From a virus: 64,000 nt of DNA. Shown here in pieces: positions 6,362-54,210 of this stretch (within the stretch, counting starts at the first letter, position 1; each line of letters opens with the position of its first letter). A program made the translations under genes and the position numbers. The stretch is from the IMG/VR virus record IMGVR_UViG_3300048583_000034, positions 1 through 64,000 of that record. One strand, 5' to 3'. The notes beneath the pieces are model-generated. The model was not told the origin of the DNA, did no database searches, and was given only the letters and a program-made list of their open reading frames with translations.

Positions 6362-6907
6362 ATGGCAAAACCTTCTGGAAAGGCGAGATACGAGAAAATC
6401 TGGCAAGATTCTAAAGGAAATTTGCGAGACGCTTGGGGCAGGTTTTTAAAGAACTGGCAGGATATTGATGATTATCAGGAAGATGAATCCTATAAGACCA
6501 ATATCAAAGAAACTGACCGAACAGTTAGTAGGGGAGAATTAAAAAATCTCCTCAACTCTAATGTTTGTGAGATTGTATTTGTCAGACGAAGGCCAGAAAG
6601 AGCACCCGGAAGACCAGAAGTCAGACGAATGTTATGCTCTAATTCTATGAGTATGTTGAATTCCCATACGGGCATCACTCGTTTAAATTTTCATCTTCCT
6701 AGAACTGCTAGGAGAATCGATGAGAATAAACACAACATTGTTGTTGTCTGGGATATCATGATGCAAGACTACCGCAACGTGAGTATGGATAATTGTCACT
6801 TACGTCAAACTATACCAGCAGATGAAACTTGGTGGAAATATTTCGATAAAACCATCTTCACCATGAGTGCTGGACAGAAACAACAATTTATGGATTCGAA
6901 TGGTTGA
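6362..6907 (+). CDS. WYL-like/Sm-fold protein (DUF2693-like)
   Basis: VCEIVFVRR...RRMLC...VVVWDIMMQDYR. Confidence 0.55.
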   Translation: MAKPSGKARYEKIWQDSKGNLRDAWGRFLKNWQDIDDYQEDESYKTNIKETDRTVSRGELKNLLNSNVCEIVFVRRRPERAPGRPEVRRMLCSNSMSMLNSHTGITRLNFHLPRTARRIDENKHNIVVVWDIMMQDYRNVSMDNCHLRQTIPADETWWKYFDKTIFTMSAGQKQQFMDSNG

Positions 6908-30359: not shown

Positions 30360-30365
30360 TTGCAG

Positions 30366-31010
30366 ATGGACACGAACTACACACACATTACAATGGTCAT
30401 TGACCGTTCAGGCAGTATGGGATCTTGTTGGAATGACGTTGTTGGCGGATACGCTGAGATCGTCAAGGAAAACAAAGAAGAAGCAGGCAAATGCACATTC
30501 ACAGTAGCAGCTTTCGATACAGATTATGAATTGATCGAAGATTTTACCGACATTAAGAAAGTCGATGAAAAACTTACGGTTCGTCCAAGAGGTGGCACTG
30601 CTCTACTAGACGCAATTGGTAAAACGATTGTTTCAGTTGGTGAAAAGCTTGCCAAGCTAAAAGAATCAAATCGCCCCGGTAAAGTGATCGTCATGGTTCA
30701 AACTGATGGAGAGGAAAATTCTTCTAAGGAATTTACCAAGGATGCAATTAAGAAATTGATTGATGAACATCAAGACAAATATTCTTGGCAGTTCATGTTC
30801 CTCGGAGCTTCATTATCTTCTGTAAACGAAGCTAGAAATTGGGGATTTAAAGCATCAAACAGTTCAGTTTACGATACTAATAATTCTCTAGATACATTCA
30901 CACTACTCTCAGCGAAAACTAAAGGAATGCGCTCGGCTTCAATGGCAACATATGCATCGGTCGCAGCCTTTACAGATGAGGACAAAAAAATTCTCAACGA
31001 AAGTAAATAA
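30366..31010 (+). CDS. von Willebrand factor A domain protein
   Basis: DRSGSM, GGTALLDAIG, TDGEEN and WQFMFLGA motifs. Confidence 0.88.
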   Translation: MDTNYTHITMVIDRSGSMGSCWNDVVGGYAEIVKENKEEAGKCTFTVAAFDTDYELIEDFTDIKKVDEKLTVRPRGGTALLDAIGKTIVSVGEKLAKLKESNRPGKVIVMVQTDGEENSSKEFTKDAIKKLIDEHQDKYSWQFMFLGASLSSVNEARNWGFKASNSSVYDTNNSLDTFTLLSAKTKGMRSASMATYASVAAFTDEDKKILNESK

Positions 31011-31039
31011 TAACATGGAAGACAATTCCTAATACTCTT

Positions 31040-31480
31040 ATGCAAAACACGTAGGTAACAGATGCCGCAACATCTGTAAAAGTCGGAAAAGATCTTACAG
31101 ATCTGAAAGAAGTGATTAAGTCAACAGCACTAGATGCTAAATTGACTAGACAAGAGGAACAGAAGATTAAGTCTTCTCAAAAAATTATCCAATATCAATA
31201 TTGGCCGAGAATTGATCCTGATAAAGAATCGAATAGATTCTGGGATTTGAGAAGTCATAGAACAGGAACTCTTAAAAGAAGAGCAAGAAGTATGCTATTG
31301 GCATACGCATTCCTTAGAGGGGTTCCATATTCCAAAGTCGAACCCAATAAAAAACCAATTAATGGTTATTGGGAACAAGTGCAATGGAATGATCAAATCG
31401 TGAAACCATTAAAGGAGTGGGCTGCTGAATATGGCGGAAAAAACTTTGATGATGAAATCGAAACTTGGTTGACATTATAA
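31040..31480 (+). CDS. 146-aa hypothetical protein requiring amber readthrough at codon 5
   Basis: ATG CAA AAC ACG TAG GTA... in frame with ORF 31112..31480; LLAYAFLRG.PY..VE motif. Confidence 0.65.
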
Positions 31481-31496
31481 AACACTAGGTTATGAT
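31469..31496 (+). promoter_or_regulatory. Promoter of the suppressor tRNA
   Basis: TTGACA-N3-TAAAACACTAG-N2-TATGAT. Confidence 0.7.
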
Positions 31497-31512
31497 ACTC
31501 TCATAACCGAAC

Positions 31513-31583
31513 GCCGAAATAGTTCAATGGTAGAACAGCTCACTCTAAATGAGCCTATGTGGGTTCAATCCCCACTTTCGGCA
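31513..31583 (+). tRNA. Amber suppressor tRNA (anticodon CTA)
   Basis: Fully paired cloverleaf: GCCGAAA/TTTCGGC and GCTCA-CTCTAAA-TGAGC; no encoded CCA. Confidence 0.92.
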
Positions 31584-31590
31584 CTTAAAA

Positions 31591-31665
31591 TGAATGATAC
31601 TTTAATTGGAAATAAGAAGACCCGTCGCAAGCGGAGCAATATAGGTTCAAGTCCTATTCATTCAA
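31591..31665 (+). pseudogene. tRNA-like element with a degenerate anticodon arm
   Basis: Perfect TGAATGA/TCATTCA acceptor and T-arm; only a 3-bp stem around TCGCAAG. Confidence 0.6.
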
Positions 31666-31810
31666 CTTTAGAAAAATAAAACATCTTACACTAAATAAGA
31701 AAGCATACAATGATTATTACAAAACAACTTAGCGAGTATCGCGGGTCATTCAATCCGATGGATTGTTGATGAGGTAGTATTGTATTCATAAACACTAGAA
31801 TAAGATGCTG

Positions 31811-32246: not shown

Positions 32247-32900
32247 ATGCGATACACCATTTATCAAATCACCAATTTAATCAATAATAAAATTTATATT
32301 GGGAAACACCAAACCATTGATCCAAATGATAATTATTTCGGGTCCGGGAAATATATTAAAGATGCGATTAAAAAACATGGGAGAAATAATTTCATAAAAA
32401 CTATTTTACATGATTTCGACACAGAGTATGAAATGAATTTAATGGAAAAAGAATTGATCACAGAAGAATTTGTTCTTCGAAAAGATACATATAATCTTGG
32501 AATTGGTGGTGAAGGTGGTCCACATTTTAAGGGAAGAACACACACTATGGAATCTATAATCAAAGCAAGAGAAACTAAAAAACAAAATGGTATTCCAGTT
32601 TCTTCTGTAACGAGAGAAAAATTATCAAAAGCTTTGAAGCATAGAGTCATAAGTGATGAACATAAGCAGAAATTGTCGGAAGCCGCAAAAAGAAATGCTT
32701 CGGATGGCATCTATAAAGGTAAATTAATCATCGAAACACGAGAATTGTGGCGTCAATTTGAGTCATCTGGCTACACATCAATCAGACAATTTGCTAAAAG
32801 TATTAGCATGAGCCATAATGCTTTAGCGTCTAGATTCAAAACTTATATTCCAGAATTTAAACCAGTATCAAATAAAGCTTATAAACAAAATGCGCGGTAG
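32247..32900 (+). CDS. GIY-YIG/NUMOD3 homing endonuclease
   Basis: IYQITNLINNKIYIGKH, YFGSG and YNLGIGGEG motifs. Confidence 0.88.
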   Translation: MRYTIYQITNLINNKIYIGKHQTIDPNDNYFGSGKYIKDAIKKHGRNNFIKTILHDFDTEYEMNLMEKELITEEFVLRKDTYNLGIGGEGGPHFKGRTHTMESIIKARETKKQNGIPVSSVTREKLSKALKHRVISDEHKQKLSEAAKRNASDGIYKGKLIIETRELWRQFESSGYTSIRQFAKSISMSHNALASRFKTYIPEFKPVSNKAYKQNAR

Positions 32901-32962
32901 AGCAGTGGTAGCTTAACACCCTCATAAGGTGGAGGTCGTTGGTTCGAATCCAACCTGCGCGT
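32891..32962 (+). tRNA. tRNA(CAT) (Met/fMet/Ile2 unresolved)
   Basis: Cloverleaf; overlaps the stop of the upstream gene. Confidence 0.85.
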
Positions 32963-34331: not shown

Positions 34332-34406
34332 CGGGGCGAAGCTTAGGTGGCGAAGCACATGGCTTTTAACCATGAGAGGGGAGTTCAAGCCTCCACGCCC
34401 TGACCA
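34332..34406 (+). tRNA. tRNA-Lys(TTT)
   Basis: Cloverleaf with CCA. Confidence 0.88.
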
Positions 34407-52686: not shown

Positions 52687-54210
52687 TTACCTTAAGAGAT
52701 TCTTCAACATCTGAGAATAAGCTTCTTGGAACGGTCCAGAAAGAATCAACCCAGCAATCTCTTTCATCCTTTGCTCATCTGGATCTTCTCCAGCGTTCAA
52801 CGTCTCTAGAACATATTCGTTTAGAGCGTCAGTTATTGAGCGAAAGTGTGTCTTATCCTTTTGCAAGACCGGAAACCAAGTCATAAGTTTAGCCCCATCG
52901 AAATATTGCTTTAACTTAAGTCTCGTTTCGTCTCTGGTTCCACCAATACGTTGAACCTTCTCTTCTGCTCTAGCAATCTTAGCGTTGAATTCATCAGCGT
53001 TAAAATGTGCTGGTCCTCTGGAAGCTTCGTCGCAATATCCAACAGCTTTCACAACTTCCCATGCTGGGTCGTTAATAAGAGCAGTCAGAGTCTTGATGTT
53101 AAGTTTATCCAGATTATGAATAAGCATATGCTTCTCCACAGCAAATAGAATATGTTTCTTATCTTGGGGAGAGAGTTCCGAGAACTTTAACGTCCTGAAG
53201 ATCCTATCCACGATAGGAACACCTGCTCCATCATGACCGTGATAGTTCGAGAAGCCATTATCCTTACGTCCTCTCGTAGTCGCTTTACCAAAGTCATGGA
53301 AAAGAACGGCAAGGTTTATAACGGGATCAGTATATGGGGACACTTTCAAACATTCATAGATATGTCCCAGCACTTGAGCATCACCTTCTGGATGATGTTG
53401 GGGATCATGATCGAATCCTTCCATAGCAGTAAACTCGGGAAGAATGTCGTGTAGAATGCCCGTCTCTTGTAACTTGTGTAGAAAGTTCGCCAGAGTCTTA
53501 CCAGACTTCGCAGACTTATAAAACTCTTTGGAAATGCTTTCCTTGGAAATCGCCTCTGGATTAGATAACAAACTCTTTAGTTCGATAGCAGCTTGTTTGG
53601 TTCCTTCTTCAATATCGAAGCCCATCTTAGCAGCAAATCTAAAGACACGTAGAATTCTAGTGGCATCTTCCTGAAATCTCTTTTTTGGATCACCCACAGC
53701 ACGCACCAGAGAGTTTTTCAAGTCCTCCAGACCACCCTGAAAGTCCACGATCTGTCCAGACGCATCCAGACCAAAGGAATTGATCGTAAGGTCTCTACGC
53801 GCAGTGTCAGCTTCAAAGGAATCCGTCTCAGTGGAGACGTTGTTCTGTCTCCCGATGTCTCCCGAATCCGTTCTGAATTTCGCAAGGTCATACCAATAGT
53901 TTCCCCACTTAATTGTAAACACAGGTTGTAAATCATCCTTAGAGATATTTCTCATCTCATAAAGTTCTGATAACTTCTCCAGAGGAATATTGGTGGCCAT
54001 ATCCACATCATCAATTTCATTCCCCATAAGAAGATCTCTAGGAACCCCACCAACAATATAAATATCACCCTTTAGTTTTGACTTGATATTCTTCATTAAA
54101 TCAAGAGCAACTCTCAATTCTTCAGAAGATTCCACAGCTTTTATCCACTTGGCATCAAAGTCATCACCATACTTCTCTAGAAGCATATAGCGCAGTTTGT
54201 CGAATTTCAT
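52687..54210 (-). CDS. cca: CCA-adding enzyme (class II nucleotidyltransferase) with HD domain
   Basis: VGGVPRD, DVD, RRDLTIN, EDATRILR, HHPEG and LFHDFGK motifs. Confidence 0.88.
   Translation of the reverse strand: MKFDKLRYMLLEKYGDDFDAKWIKAVESSEELRVALDLMKNIKSKLKGDIYIVGGVPRDLLMGNEIDDVDMATNIPLEKLSELYEMRNISKDDLQPVFTIKWGNYWYDLAKFRTDSGDIGRQNNVSTETDSFEADTARRDLTINSFGLDASGQIVDFQGGLEDLKNSLVRAVGDPKKRFQEDATRILRVFRFAAKMGFDIEEGTKQAAIELKSLLSNPEAISKESISKEFYKSAKSGKTLANFLHKLQETGILHDILPEFTAMEGFDHDPQHHPEGDAQVLGHIYECLKVSPYTDPVINLAVLFHDFGKATTRGRKDNGFSNYHGHDGAGVPIVDRIFRTLKFSELSPQDKKHILFAVEKHMLIHNLDKLNIKTLTALINDPAWEVVKAVGYCDEASRGPAHFNADEFNAKIARAEEKVQRIGGTRDETRLKLKQYFDGAKLMTWFPVLQKDKTHFRSITDALNEYVLETLNAGEDPDEQRMKEIAGLILSGPFQEAYSQMLKNLLR

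What the first reader, a model, noticed from the sequence alone, without database searches (positions are those of the whole stretch)
31004..31583. Amber-gated gene wired to its own suppressor tRNA
Seen, in order: TAAATA (31004); a leaderless 5-codon uORF MEDNS* (31015-31032); ATG 31040 reading M-Q-N-T-TAG(31052)-V-T-D-A..., open and in frame for 146 codons to 31480; a promoter; a fully paired tRNA with anticodon CTA (31545-31547). No other recognisable gene here is interrupted by TAG, and TAG still ends a few ORFs, so the genome is not globally recoded. Inference: this is a single-gene readthrough switch whose output depends on competition between the suppressor tRNA and RF1. It could serve as a timer or as a sensor of tRNA or translation status. 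The protein (LLAYAFLRG.PY..VE) has no function I can assign.
Basis: partly seen in the sequence, partly recalled or inferred. Interest (0 to 1): 0.85.

Follow-up and report, generated by a model that had tools for sequence, protein, structure and literature searches.

The report
Amber-gated phage gene with suppressor tRNA
A T4-like phage that otherwise uses the normal genetic code keeps a UAG stop as the fifth codon of one small gene, followed by a conserved RNA hairpin and by the phage's own UAG-reading tRNA, so the protein can probably be made only when that tRNA overrides the stop: a natural translational switch that gives 'orphan' phage suppressor tRNAs a target.

Summary
The TAG is not an error or a chance nonsense mutation. 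Nine other T4-like phage contigs carry the same gene, at 34-48% protein identity to the window. All nine have TAG as codon 5. All nine have a 7-bp hairpin 3 nt after it, and five of its seven pairs show compensatory changes. Eight of the eight with downstream DNA have a tRNA-CUA 15-55 nt after the gene's stop. A scan that left codon 5 free found no sense-codon version.

The protein belongs to an uncharacterised helical family (about 700 database members, no Pfam or PHROG match). This family travels with suppressor tRNAs: 39 of 94 distinct genes have one within 600 nt. GC-rich members carry TAG at codon 3, after a strong Shine-Dalgarno site. Other members, including the cultured Stenotrophomonas phages Summit and DLP_5, instead sit behind a UAG-containing leader peptide (MK*VYKPP*).

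The 99-kb record is only 48% complete. It is not recoded and holds no second gate.

Best reading: programmed amber readthrough that depends on the phage's own suppressor tRNA and reports suppression activity. The protein's function is unknown. Earlier notes of this scan describe similar amber-gated modules on other DNA with other client genes. I found no published description.

The parts
31004..31009 (+). TAAATA late-promoter motif (T4-late-like). Its canonical +5 ATG is 31015, not the gene's ATG.
   Evidence: TAAATA-N5-ATG precedes about 30 long ORFs, including the portal, head and tail genes.
31015..31032 (+). 5-codon uORF MEDNS*, out of frame with the gene. Its stop lies 7 nt before ATG 31040.
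   Evidence: Sequence. Not conserved in relatives.
31040..31480 (+). Amber-gated gene of 146 codons, with TAG as codon 5. The product is a helical protein of an uncharacterised family linked to suppressor tRNAs.
   Evidence: Translation. Homologs. AlphaFold2 pLDDT 87. No Pfam, PHROG, NCBIfam, PADLOC or PDB match.
31052..31054 (+). In-frame TAG (codon 5), followed by G.
   Evidence: Conserved in 10 of 10 T4-like relatives. A scan with codon 5 left free found only TAG versions.
31058..31077 (+). Hairpin 3 nt after the TAG. The 7-bp stem is ACAGATG/CATCTGT and the loop is CCGCAA (consensus CCNNAA).
   Evidence: 98.6% of cells are paired, and 5 of 7 pairs have compensatory changes. Covariation is 0.705 against 0.18 for shuffles, and slid controls stay at or below 46%. 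It appears in MFE folds. The covariance model finds one copy per locus.
31112..31114 (+). GTG, the first canonical start after the TAG (codon 25). Gene callers use it, giving a 122-aa product.
   Evidence: It would cut into the conserved N-terminal helix.
31481..31496 (+). Early-type promoter AACACTAG-gt-TATGAT in front of the tRNA.
   Evidence: Matches the consensus of 50 sites in the record. The same motif precedes the tRNA-CUA in L006.
31513..31584 (+). tRNA with anticodon CUA (31545-31547), the first gene of a 24-tRNA array. No CCA is encoded.
   Evidence: ARAGORN. Rfam tRNA model, 72.5 bits.

Best explanation
The gene at 31040-31480 is translated from ATG 31040. Its fifth codon, UAG, is decoded by the phage's own tRNA-CUA, which is encoded 32 nt downstream and competes with release factor 1.

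Without suppression only the tetrapeptide MQNT is made. The conserved N-terminal helix cannot be reached, because no start codon lies between the UAG and codon 25.

A conserved hairpin begins 3 nt after the UAG. It meets the ribosome's entry channel while the UAG is in the A site, and it probably tunes the outcome by pausing the ribosome or binding a factor.

The amount of protein therefore reports how well UAG is being read through. The protein belongs to a family that is physically linked to suppressor tRNAs across unrelated phages. In other members the family is coupled to readthrough by a different device, a UAG-containing leader peptide. I therefore infer that the protein is a functional partner of the suppressor tRNA, either a regulator of suppression or a factor that deals with its consequences, and that the UAG closes a feedback or feed-forward loop.

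Shown: the anatomy, its conservation, the RNA covariation and the linkage. Inferred: that readthrough occurs, which residue is inserted (Gln or Lys by analogy with E. coli amber suppressors), what the hairpin does, and what the protein does.
For: 1. TAG is codon 5 in the window and in 9 other T4-like contigs at 34-48% protein identity to the window. It is always in frame, and indels between the TAG and the conserved helix are whole codons.
2. With codon 5 left free, the pattern scan found 9 family members. All have TAG and none has a sense codon.
3. A tRNA-CUA lies 15-55 nt after the stop in 8 of 8 relatives with downstream DNA, although those arrays hold 9-23 tRNAs.
4. The segment upstream of any alternative start is under protein-level selection. 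Ser is encoded by TCT, TCA and AGT, and Leu codons differ synonymously. Distant homologs start 4-5 residues before the L of LKVKIK.
5. The hairpin has compensatory changes in 5 of 7 pairs. The middle loop codon keeps its third base while its amino acid varies (A, G, T, R, E, K, V), which points to selection on the RNA.
6. A GC-rich branch has AAGGAG, then ATG ACG TAG AT., with the tRNA-CUA just upstream and no canonical start before the helix in two of the four loci (L188 CTC, L211/L026 CTG); in L212 and L219 the first helix codon is itself TTG.
7. Of 16 gated genes, 15 have an amber tRNA within 600 nt, and the sixteenth ends at a contig end. The figure for ungated genes is 17 of 78 (Fisher 8e-8).
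8. Ungated members next to a tRNA-CUA sit behind leaders with an early UAG: MK*VYKPP* in phages Summit and DLP_5, and M.*LSTGPP... in L027, L196, L205 and L206.
9. TAG is avoided as a terminator (8 of 140 ORFs), and some of those ORFs have a second stop right behind it.
Against: There are no expression, ribosome-profiling or proteomic data.

Nine of the ten T4-like relatives have ATG or TTG at codon 21-23, so a shorter protein made by reinitiation is possible. Gene callers choose that start.

The first 11 residues are predicted disordered, so the extension itself may not matter for the protein's function.

The protein's function is unknown. Fold searches gave only generic coiled-coil matches.

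The record is 48% complete, so other UAG-containing genes may exist.

The GC-rich gated members have no hairpin after the UAG, so the hairpin is not essential to gating in general.
Confidence: 0.72

Rival explanations
1. The UAG is a true terminator of a 4-codon mini-ORF (M-Q/K-N-T). The working protein starts downstream by reinitiation, at GTG 31112 in the window and at ATG or TTG at codon 21-23 in relatives. The mini-ORF and hairpin act as a leader that sets how many ribosomes reach that start. The tRNA-CUA modulates this, and a readthrough form is at most a minor isoform.
For: ATG or TTG sits at codon 21-23 in 9 of 10 T4-like relatives. All code-11 gene calls start there. Related family genes are controlled by separate UAG leader peptides. 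The N-terminal 11 residues are disordered.
Against: The stop is in frame in 16 of 16 cases, and spacer indels are whole codons. The Ser TCN/AGY switch shows protein-level constraint upstream of the alternative start. The window has CTG at that codon, and its first start removes more of the conserved helix. GC-rich members L188 and L211 have CTC and CTG there. The stop is always TAG, although TAG ends only 6% of this phage's ORFs.
Confidence: 0.15
2. The hairpin is an insertion element of the SECIS or PYLIS kind. It directs a special residue to this UAG through the dedicated tRNA and an unidentified factor.
For: The hairpin sits at a fixed distance from the stop and has a conserved loop (CCNNAA). 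The tRNA is dedicated and linked to the gene.
Against: The tRNA is an ordinary cloverleaf that scores high on the general tRNA model. The 99 kb holds no PylS, EF-Tu/SelB-like GTPase or release factor. The residue lies in a disordered, poorly conserved tail. Gated GC-rich members lack the hairpin.
Confidence: 0.05
3. The conserved AAAACAC-R-TAGGTA is a DNA-level signal, for example a variant of the phage's AACACTAG promoter or the site of a DNA-binding factor. On this reading the in-frame TAG is a by-product.
For: In the window, codons 2-6 read AAAACACGTAGG. That is one inserted base away from the early-promoter core AAAACACTAGG, which occurs 50 times.
Against: No TAnAAT-like -10 element and no ATG follow at the right spacing. 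L005 and L007 have no AACACTAG promoter motif in the 12 kb held, yet they keep the TAG and the hairpin. L005 and L163 read CAAAACAATAGG and AAAAACAATAGG. GC-rich gated members have an unrelated context.
Confidence: 0.04
4. The TAG is an assembly error, or a recent nonsense mutation tolerated because a suppressor tRNA happens to be present. On this reading the gene is decaying.
For: Database proteins P0002, P0005, P0009 and P0012 show Q at position 5. At first this looked like a CAG ancestor.
Against: Every relative whose DNA I could read has TAG. The Q calls pair with truncated calls on contigs of the same size, and the Atlas holds P0009 only from residue 20 on. This fits gene callers that read TAG as Q. 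The hairpin and the rest of the gene are under selection.
Confidence: 0.02

Closest known systems
Stop-codon-recoded phages with their own suppressor tRNAs (TAG read as Gln, 'code 15': crAss-like, Lak and others; Borges et al., bioRxiv 10.1101/2021.08.26.457843)
   Same: A phage-encoded tRNA-CUA in a phage of a standard-code host. TAG is depleted as a terminator. Translation of UAG-bearing genes is conditional on the tRNA.
   Different: In those phages 26-71% of genes carry in-frame stops, mainly structural and lysis genes. Here one gene in 99 kb does. The stop is at a fixed early codon, is physically linked to the tRNA, and is followed by a covarying hairpin. That paper treats standard-code phages with suppressor tRNAs only as possible precursors of recoding.
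prfB (release factor 2) autoregulation through an early in-frame UGA
   Same: An early in-frame stop codon inside a gene serves as a sensor of how that stop is being decoded. (Established knowledge.)
   Different: prfB escapes by a +1 frameshift with an internal Shine-Dalgarno site, and its product is the factor that reads the stop. Here the frame is unchanged, a dedicated tRNA reads the stop, and the product's activity is unknown.
SECIS (bacterial selenocysteine) and PYLIS elements
   Same: A stop codon inside an ORF, a hairpin close downstream and a dedicated tRNA.
   Different: No special tRNA shape, synthetase or SelB-like factor was found. The residue lies in a disordered tail.
Viral programmed readthrough (Q-beta A1 protein; MuLV gag-pol with a downstream pseudoknot)
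   Same: Competition between decoding and termination at one stop. In MuLV a downstream structure acts as the stimulator.
   Different: Those use host near-cognate tRNAs at a stop near the end of an ORF, and they make a C-terminally extended minor product. Here a virus-encoded cognate suppressor reads a stop at codon 5, so the whole protein depends on it.
Synthetic amber-gated circuits (suppressor tRNA plus amber-interrupted regulator; for example the feed-forward 'leak dampener', PMC7969014)
   Same: The logic is the same. Output needs both the mRNA and a working suppressor tRNA.
   Different: Those are engineered. This one is natural and conserved.
'Orphan' suppressor tRNAs of cultured standard-code phages (Stenotrophomonas phage Summit, PMC9022506: 'possible target genes ... 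not identified')
   Same: Summit and DLP_5 carry a member of the same protein family 6-7 nt upstream of their tRNA-Sup-CUA, at the head of a tRNA array.
   Different: In them the family gene has no internal TAG. A leader, MK-UAG-VYKPP-stop, lies 70-100 nt upstream instead.

Membership tests
Programmed stop-codon readthrough (recoding) site | An in-frame stop conserved at the same position inside a conserved coding frame | tested here: met
   TAG at codon 5 in 10 of 10 T4-like loci. The frame is kept, indels are whole codons, and the sequence shows protein-level constraint on both sides.
Programmed stop-codon readthrough (recoding) site | A cis-acting context or structure conserved next to the stop | tested here: met
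   A G follows the TAG in 10 of 10. The 7-bp hairpin 3 nt downstream has 5 covarying pairs. Whether it has any effect on readthrough was not tested.
Programmed stop-codon readthrough (recoding) site | A readthrough product is actually made | not testable with these tools
Stop-codon-recoded (code 15) phage | A large share of genes carry in-frame TAG, and code 11 fragments the genes | tested here: not met
   Coding density is 84.4% under code 11 and 86.2% with TAG read as sense. Only one supported in-frame TAG exists in 99 kb. The record is 48% complete.
Stop-codon-recoded (code 15) phage | A phage-encoded tRNA-CUA, with TAG rare as a terminator | tested here: met
   The tRNA was found. TAG ends 8 of 140 ORFs.
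SECIS/PYLIS-type special insertion | A dedicated synthetase or elongation factor (PylS; SelB-like GTPase) | tested here: inconclusive
   No PF00009 or TIGR02367 match in the record, but half of the genome is missing and the host is unknown.
SECIS/PYLIS-type special insertion | A tRNA with the unusual architecture of tRNA-Sec or tRNA-Pyl | tested here: not met
   Standard 7/4/5/5 cloverleaf with a 4-nt variable region, scoring 72.5 bits on the general tRNA model. ARAGORN's 'Pyl' label reflects only the anticodon.
prfB-type autoregulatory recoding | Escape from the stop by a +1 frameshift at a slippery codon with an upstream Shine-Dalgarno site | tested here: not met
   The ORF continues in the same frame. 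No Shine-Dalgarno-like element is present, and this phage's genes lack them.
UAG-leader peptide design (M-x-UAG ... GPP/KPP) seen next to other phage suppressor tRNAs | A separate short ORF with an early UAG and a Pro-Pro motif upstream of the client gene | tested here: not met
   The window has the UAG inside the client gene itself. The uORF MEDNS* has no UAG and no PP motif. The leader design is present in relatives of the same protein family.
Amber suppressor tRNA | A complete cloverleaf with anticodon CUA | tested here: met
Amber suppressor tRNA | It is aminoacylated and active on the ribosome | not testable with these tools
   The identity elements (G1-C72, A73, class I) do not point to one synthetase. 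Its nearest tRNAs by sequence are of mixed type.

The most novel reading that the evidence does not exclude
The helical protein and the suppressor tRNA form a mobile two-part controller of stop-codon readthrough. The protein acts directly on the suppressor tRNA or on the termination or rescue machinery, and its own synthesis is wired to readthrough. The wiring is either an in-gene UAG plus a bacterial readthrough-stimulating hairpin, as here, or a UAG/Pro-Pro arrest leader, as in relatives. This would let a standard-code phage set and hold a chosen level of UAG (or UGA) suppression in the infected cell.
Probability: 0.35. Interest if true: 0.9.

Novelty: new variant of a known kind. Interest (0 to 1): 0.8.

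Why it matters
Many standard-code phages carry suppressor tRNAs with no known purpose. The paper on Stenotrophomonas phage Summit says outright that no target genes could be identified (PMC9022506). This finding supplies a target: a conserved client gene that cannot be translated in full without the tRNA.

It also shows that one protein family is tied to readthrough by at least two independent devices. That argues that sensing suppression is the selected function.

It adds a candidate bacterial RNA structure acting at a UAG. Outside SECIS and PYLIS I know of no natural example.

It has a practical side too. Gene callers either truncate the gene or read the TAG as Q, so databases hold two versions of the same protein.

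Because cultured phages (Summit, DLP_5, OLIVR1) carry the family next to CUA-type tRNAs, the question can be tested at the bench. The design is also a natural counterpart of the amber-gated circuits used in synthetic biology.

Tried and rejected
- **DNA of the closest database relatives (P0002-P0008).** The first IMG/VR and JGI scans with the close homolog found nothing.
- **Anticodon-arm pattern scan.** It gave one unrelated GC-rich hit.
- **A 14-base pattern around the TAG.** It returned mostly chance sites: 112 of 115 were non-family, and none of those had more than 5 hairpin pairs. A 17-base pattern replaced it.
- **'Q at position 5' as evidence of a CAG ancestor.** Rejected once the relatives' DNA showed TAG.
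- **A second gate in the genome, at 83141 on the minus strand (MGLG-TAG).** Rejected, because 9 homologs are all 104 aa with no extension.
- **A possible small helix pairing the AUG with the CAU/CGU that overlaps the UAG.** It appears in some folds. I did not pursue it, because only 3 bp would remain on a leaderless mRNA and L005 lacks it.
- **Protein function.** Pfam, PHROGs, NCBIfam, PADLOC and the PDB sequence profile gave nothing. Foldseek against the PDB had no hit at E <= 0.001; its top rows include RF2 chains at E about 2, which I do not count as evidence. VIA-align gave generic helical hairpins with Z of 7.2 or less. The ESM Atlas gave low-feature portal-fragment hits, which look like chance.
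- **Rfam at a permissive threshold.** It found nothing over the 5' region.
- **tRNA identity by similarity.** Inconclusive.
Full report
**What is there**

The window is the first 64 kb of a 99,180-bp virus record (GC 37.6%, CheckV completeness 48%). It is a distant T4-like myovirus. Portal, major head, sheath-stabiliser and tail proteins were found. Its gp23 homolog is about 33% identical to those of cyanophage T4-likes.

- TAAATA at 31004.
- ATG 31015 to TAA 31032, encoding MEDNS*.
- ATG 31040, CAA AAC ACG, then TAG at 31052. The frame stays open to TAA 31478-80.
- A promoter-like AACACTAG-gt-TATGAT at 31481-96.
- A tRNA at 31513-84 with anticodon CUA (Rfam 72.5 bits), the first of 24 tRNAs.

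**Signals of this phage**

Genes have no Shine-Dalgarno sequences. Two motifs stand directly before start codons.
- AACACTAG-N2-TAnAAT-N6-ATG occurs 50 times, mostly before small ORFs. For the 10-mer AAACACTAGG with up to one mismatch, the window holds 27 sites against 4 expected.
- TAAATA-N5-ATG precedes about 30 long ORFs, including structural genes.

The spacing implies leaderless or nearly leaderless mRNAs of an early and a late class. This is inference. The tRNA-CUA has the early motif. The gated gene lies behind a late motif, but that motif's canonical ATG (31015) opens only the 5-codon uORF.

**Not a recoded genome**

Reading TAG as sense adds less ORF length than reading TGA or TAA as sense. 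Coding density is 84.4% under code 11 and 86.2% with TAG as sense. TAG ends 8 of 140 ORFs, and some of those have a second stop right behind it.

Searches for other early-TAG starts found nothing supported. The one candidate, at 83141 on the minus strand, was rejected because its 9 homologs are all 104 aa with no extension. A covariance model of the TAG-plus-hairpin element finds one copy per locus.

**The TAG is conserved**

The protein databases first seemed to show Gln at position 5 (P0002, P0005, P0009, P0012). Those long calls, however, pair with truncated calls for the same sequences.

The DNA settled the question. Among 45 IMG/VR loci found with a family alignment, the seven of the close subfamily (L002-L008) read ATG-xAA-AAC-xCx-TAG-GTx. 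Six of the six with downstream DNA have a tRNA-CUA directly after the gene, although their arrays hold 9-23 tRNAs.

A pattern scan that left codon 5 free returned 16 sites.
- Nine were family members, two of them new (L163 and L169). All nine had TAG.
- Eight of the eight with downstream DNA had the tRNA-CUA within 59 nt of the stop.
- The seven non-family sites had at most 5 hairpin pairs and no tRNA.

The ten proteins are 34-83% identical to each other, and the window's is 34-48% identical to the rest. So the TAG is neither an assembly error nor a recent mutation.

**The segment after the TAG is translated**

The stop is always in frame. The spacer to the conserved helix is 10, 11 or 12 codons. 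Apart from L004, no locus has a canonical start between codon 5 and codon 21-23. In the block FL[S]G, Ser is encoded by TCT, TCA and AGT, and Leu by CTT, CTA and CTC. This is protein-level selection upstream of any alternative start.

Across the wider family (705 hits at E <= 1e-3), homologs begin 4-5 residues before the L of LKVKIK. In the window that L is CTG, and the first start (GTG 31112) lies three codons further in.

**A hairpin follows the UAG**

Three nucleotides after the TAG lies a 7-bp stem with a 6-nt loop CCNNAA (window 31058-77). On ten sequences:
- 98.6% of cells pair, and 5 of 7 pairs show changes on both sides.
- The covariation score is 0.705 against 0.18 for shuffles.
- Sliding the partner by 1-3 columns drops pairing to 46% or below.

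The middle loop codon varies in amino acid (A, G, T, R, E, K, V) but always ends in A. That marks selection on the RNA. The hairpin is the MFE structure in single-sequence folds. With the UAG in the A site, the base of the stem would be at the ribosome's entry channel. This geometry, and any effect on readthrough, are inferred.

**The protein family travels with suppressor tRNAs**

I pooled two protein-based scans and the pattern scan and removed duplicates, which left 94 distinct family genes.
- 63 have any tRNA in the DNA held.
- 39 have a suppressor-type tRNA within 600 nt. Within 1.5 kb there are 43: 32 CUA, 3 CUA-like with odd loops and 8 UCA-like.
- In 40 of the 63 the nearest tRNA is of suppressor type.

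Sixteen genes are gated. Ten are the T4-like ones. Four GC-rich ones read AAGGAG-N5-7-ATG-ACG-TAG-AT., with the tRNA-CUA just upstream (L026/L211, L188, L212, L219). L014 reads ATG TTG TAG GTT three bases after its tRNA-CUA. L228 is the sixteenth. Fifteen of the 16 have an amber tRNA within 600 nt, and the sixteenth ends at a contig end. The figure for ungated genes is 17 of 78 (Fisher 8e-8). The GC-rich gates have no hairpin.

**A second way of coupling the same family to readthrough**

The cultured Stenotrophomonas phages Summit and DLP_5 carry an ungated family gene 6-7 nt upstream of their annotated tRNA-Sup-CUA, at the head of a tRNA array. About 70-100 nt upstream of that gene lies a leader encoding MK-UAG-VYKPP-stop; in DLP_5 a GAAGGAG Shine-Dalgarno sequence directly precedes its ATG.

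Other ungated loci next to a tRNA-CUA have leaders M-x-UAG-LSTGPP... or ...RGPP..., which end at the gene's start (L027, L196, L205, L206, L037). Two opal-linked loci have MxFT-UGA-I leaders. Earlier notes of this scan describe such UAG/Pro-Pro leaders in front of an 'unknown gene', and early-TAG gates in Pth2-like and tRNA-end genes, on other genomes. I confirmed only the parts listed here.

**The protein**

AlphaFold2 on a 19-sequence alignment gives pLDDT 87. The model has a long basic helical hairpin (residues 19-46 and 62-92) plus three shorter helices, and residues 1-11 are disordered. Invariant residues include K27, E39, E40, R74, R83, Y89, R93, E101 and W143.

No library or structure search gave a meaningful match. 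The 99 kb holds no release factor, EF-Tu-like GTPase, PylS or Pth2.

**Reading**

The most economical account is programmed readthrough that depends on the phage's own suppressor tRNA. It makes the level of this protein a read-out of UAG suppression.

The same family is tied to readthrough by an in-gene stop in two unrelated contexts and by leader peptides in others. I therefore infer that the coupling itself is the selected trait, and that the protein works with the suppressor tRNA or with the consequences of suppression.

Whether the loop is negative (homeostasis, as with prfB) or positive (a commitment switch) cannot be decided here. A shorter reinitiated isoform remains possible.

**Literature**

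Searches of the held library found global recoding and suppressor acquisition by standard-code phages. They also found the statement that Summit's suppressor tRNA has no identified target. They found no description of a single gated gene, of this hairpin or of this protein family.

Noticed in passing
whole record; e.g. window 30069, 31481, 39159, 55135; minus strand 56-62 kb: A 20-nt promoter-like consensus, (A/T)TAAAACACTAG-N2-TAnAAT-N6-ATG, occurs 50 times in 99 kb. A second motif, TAAATA-N5-ATG, stands before about 30 late or structural genes. Together with the lack of Shine-Dalgarno sites, this suggests that most mRNAs of this T4-like phage are leaderless.
   Followed up: partly
G000 66425-66655 (-), 71361-71588 (-); window 32247-32927 (+): The few ORFs that end in TAG have a second stop 1 to 9 codons later (TAG-TAA type back-up). 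This would be expected if TAG is leaky in this phage.
   Followed up: no
L029/L030 6316-6389, L034 2008-2082, L018 5572-5644, L031 5595-5668: tRNAs next to family genes have UCA-type anticodons. Several have an 8-nt anticodon loop, CUUUCAAU, which ARAGORN reads as a 4-base anticodon (UUCA). They may be opal or quadruplet decoders.
   Followed up: partly
L256 2312-2385 (Agrobacterium phage OLIVR1, NC_055840 40274-40347): The tRNA annotated tRNA-Val has a 6-nt anticodon loop, CCCUAA, which contains CUA. It lies 100 nt upstream of a family member annotated 'putative structural protein' (gp025). The annotation may be wrong on both counts.
   Followed up: partly
proteins P0002/P0003, P0004/P0005, P0009: Public protein sets hold two versions of the same gene. 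One is truncated at the post-TAG start. The other is full length with Q at the TAG, apparently from gene callers that allow code 15 on short contigs.
   Followed up: partly
L002 6448-6479, L003 6418-6472, L007/L008 about 6475-6518: In relatives without a promoter between the gene and the tRNA-CUA, a GC-rich hairpin lies directly before the tRNA's 5' end (for example GGTAGCA...TGCTACC and TATCC-TTCG-GGATA). It may stabilise the mRNA 3' end after RNase P cleavage, which would imply that gene and tRNA are co-transcribed.
   Followed up: no
window 34332-34403 and 31591-31666: Rfam finds a tRNA at 34332-34403 that ARAGORN misses. The 'tRNA-Cys' right after the tRNA-CUA scores only 37 bits.
   Followed up: no
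window 30360-31010: The VWA-domain gene (phrog_7371) just upstream of the gated gene is also found in L002-L004, L006-L008 and L016, lying 2.3-3.5 kb upstream of the family gene in L002, L003 and L006. In L004 it directly precedes the gated gene, as in the window.
   Followed up: partly
window 52690-54210 (-): The phage encodes a tRNA nucleotidyltransferase (CCA-adding enzyme). The tRNA-CUA gene encodes no CCA, so the suppressor's maturation may depend on this phage enzyme.
   Followed up: no
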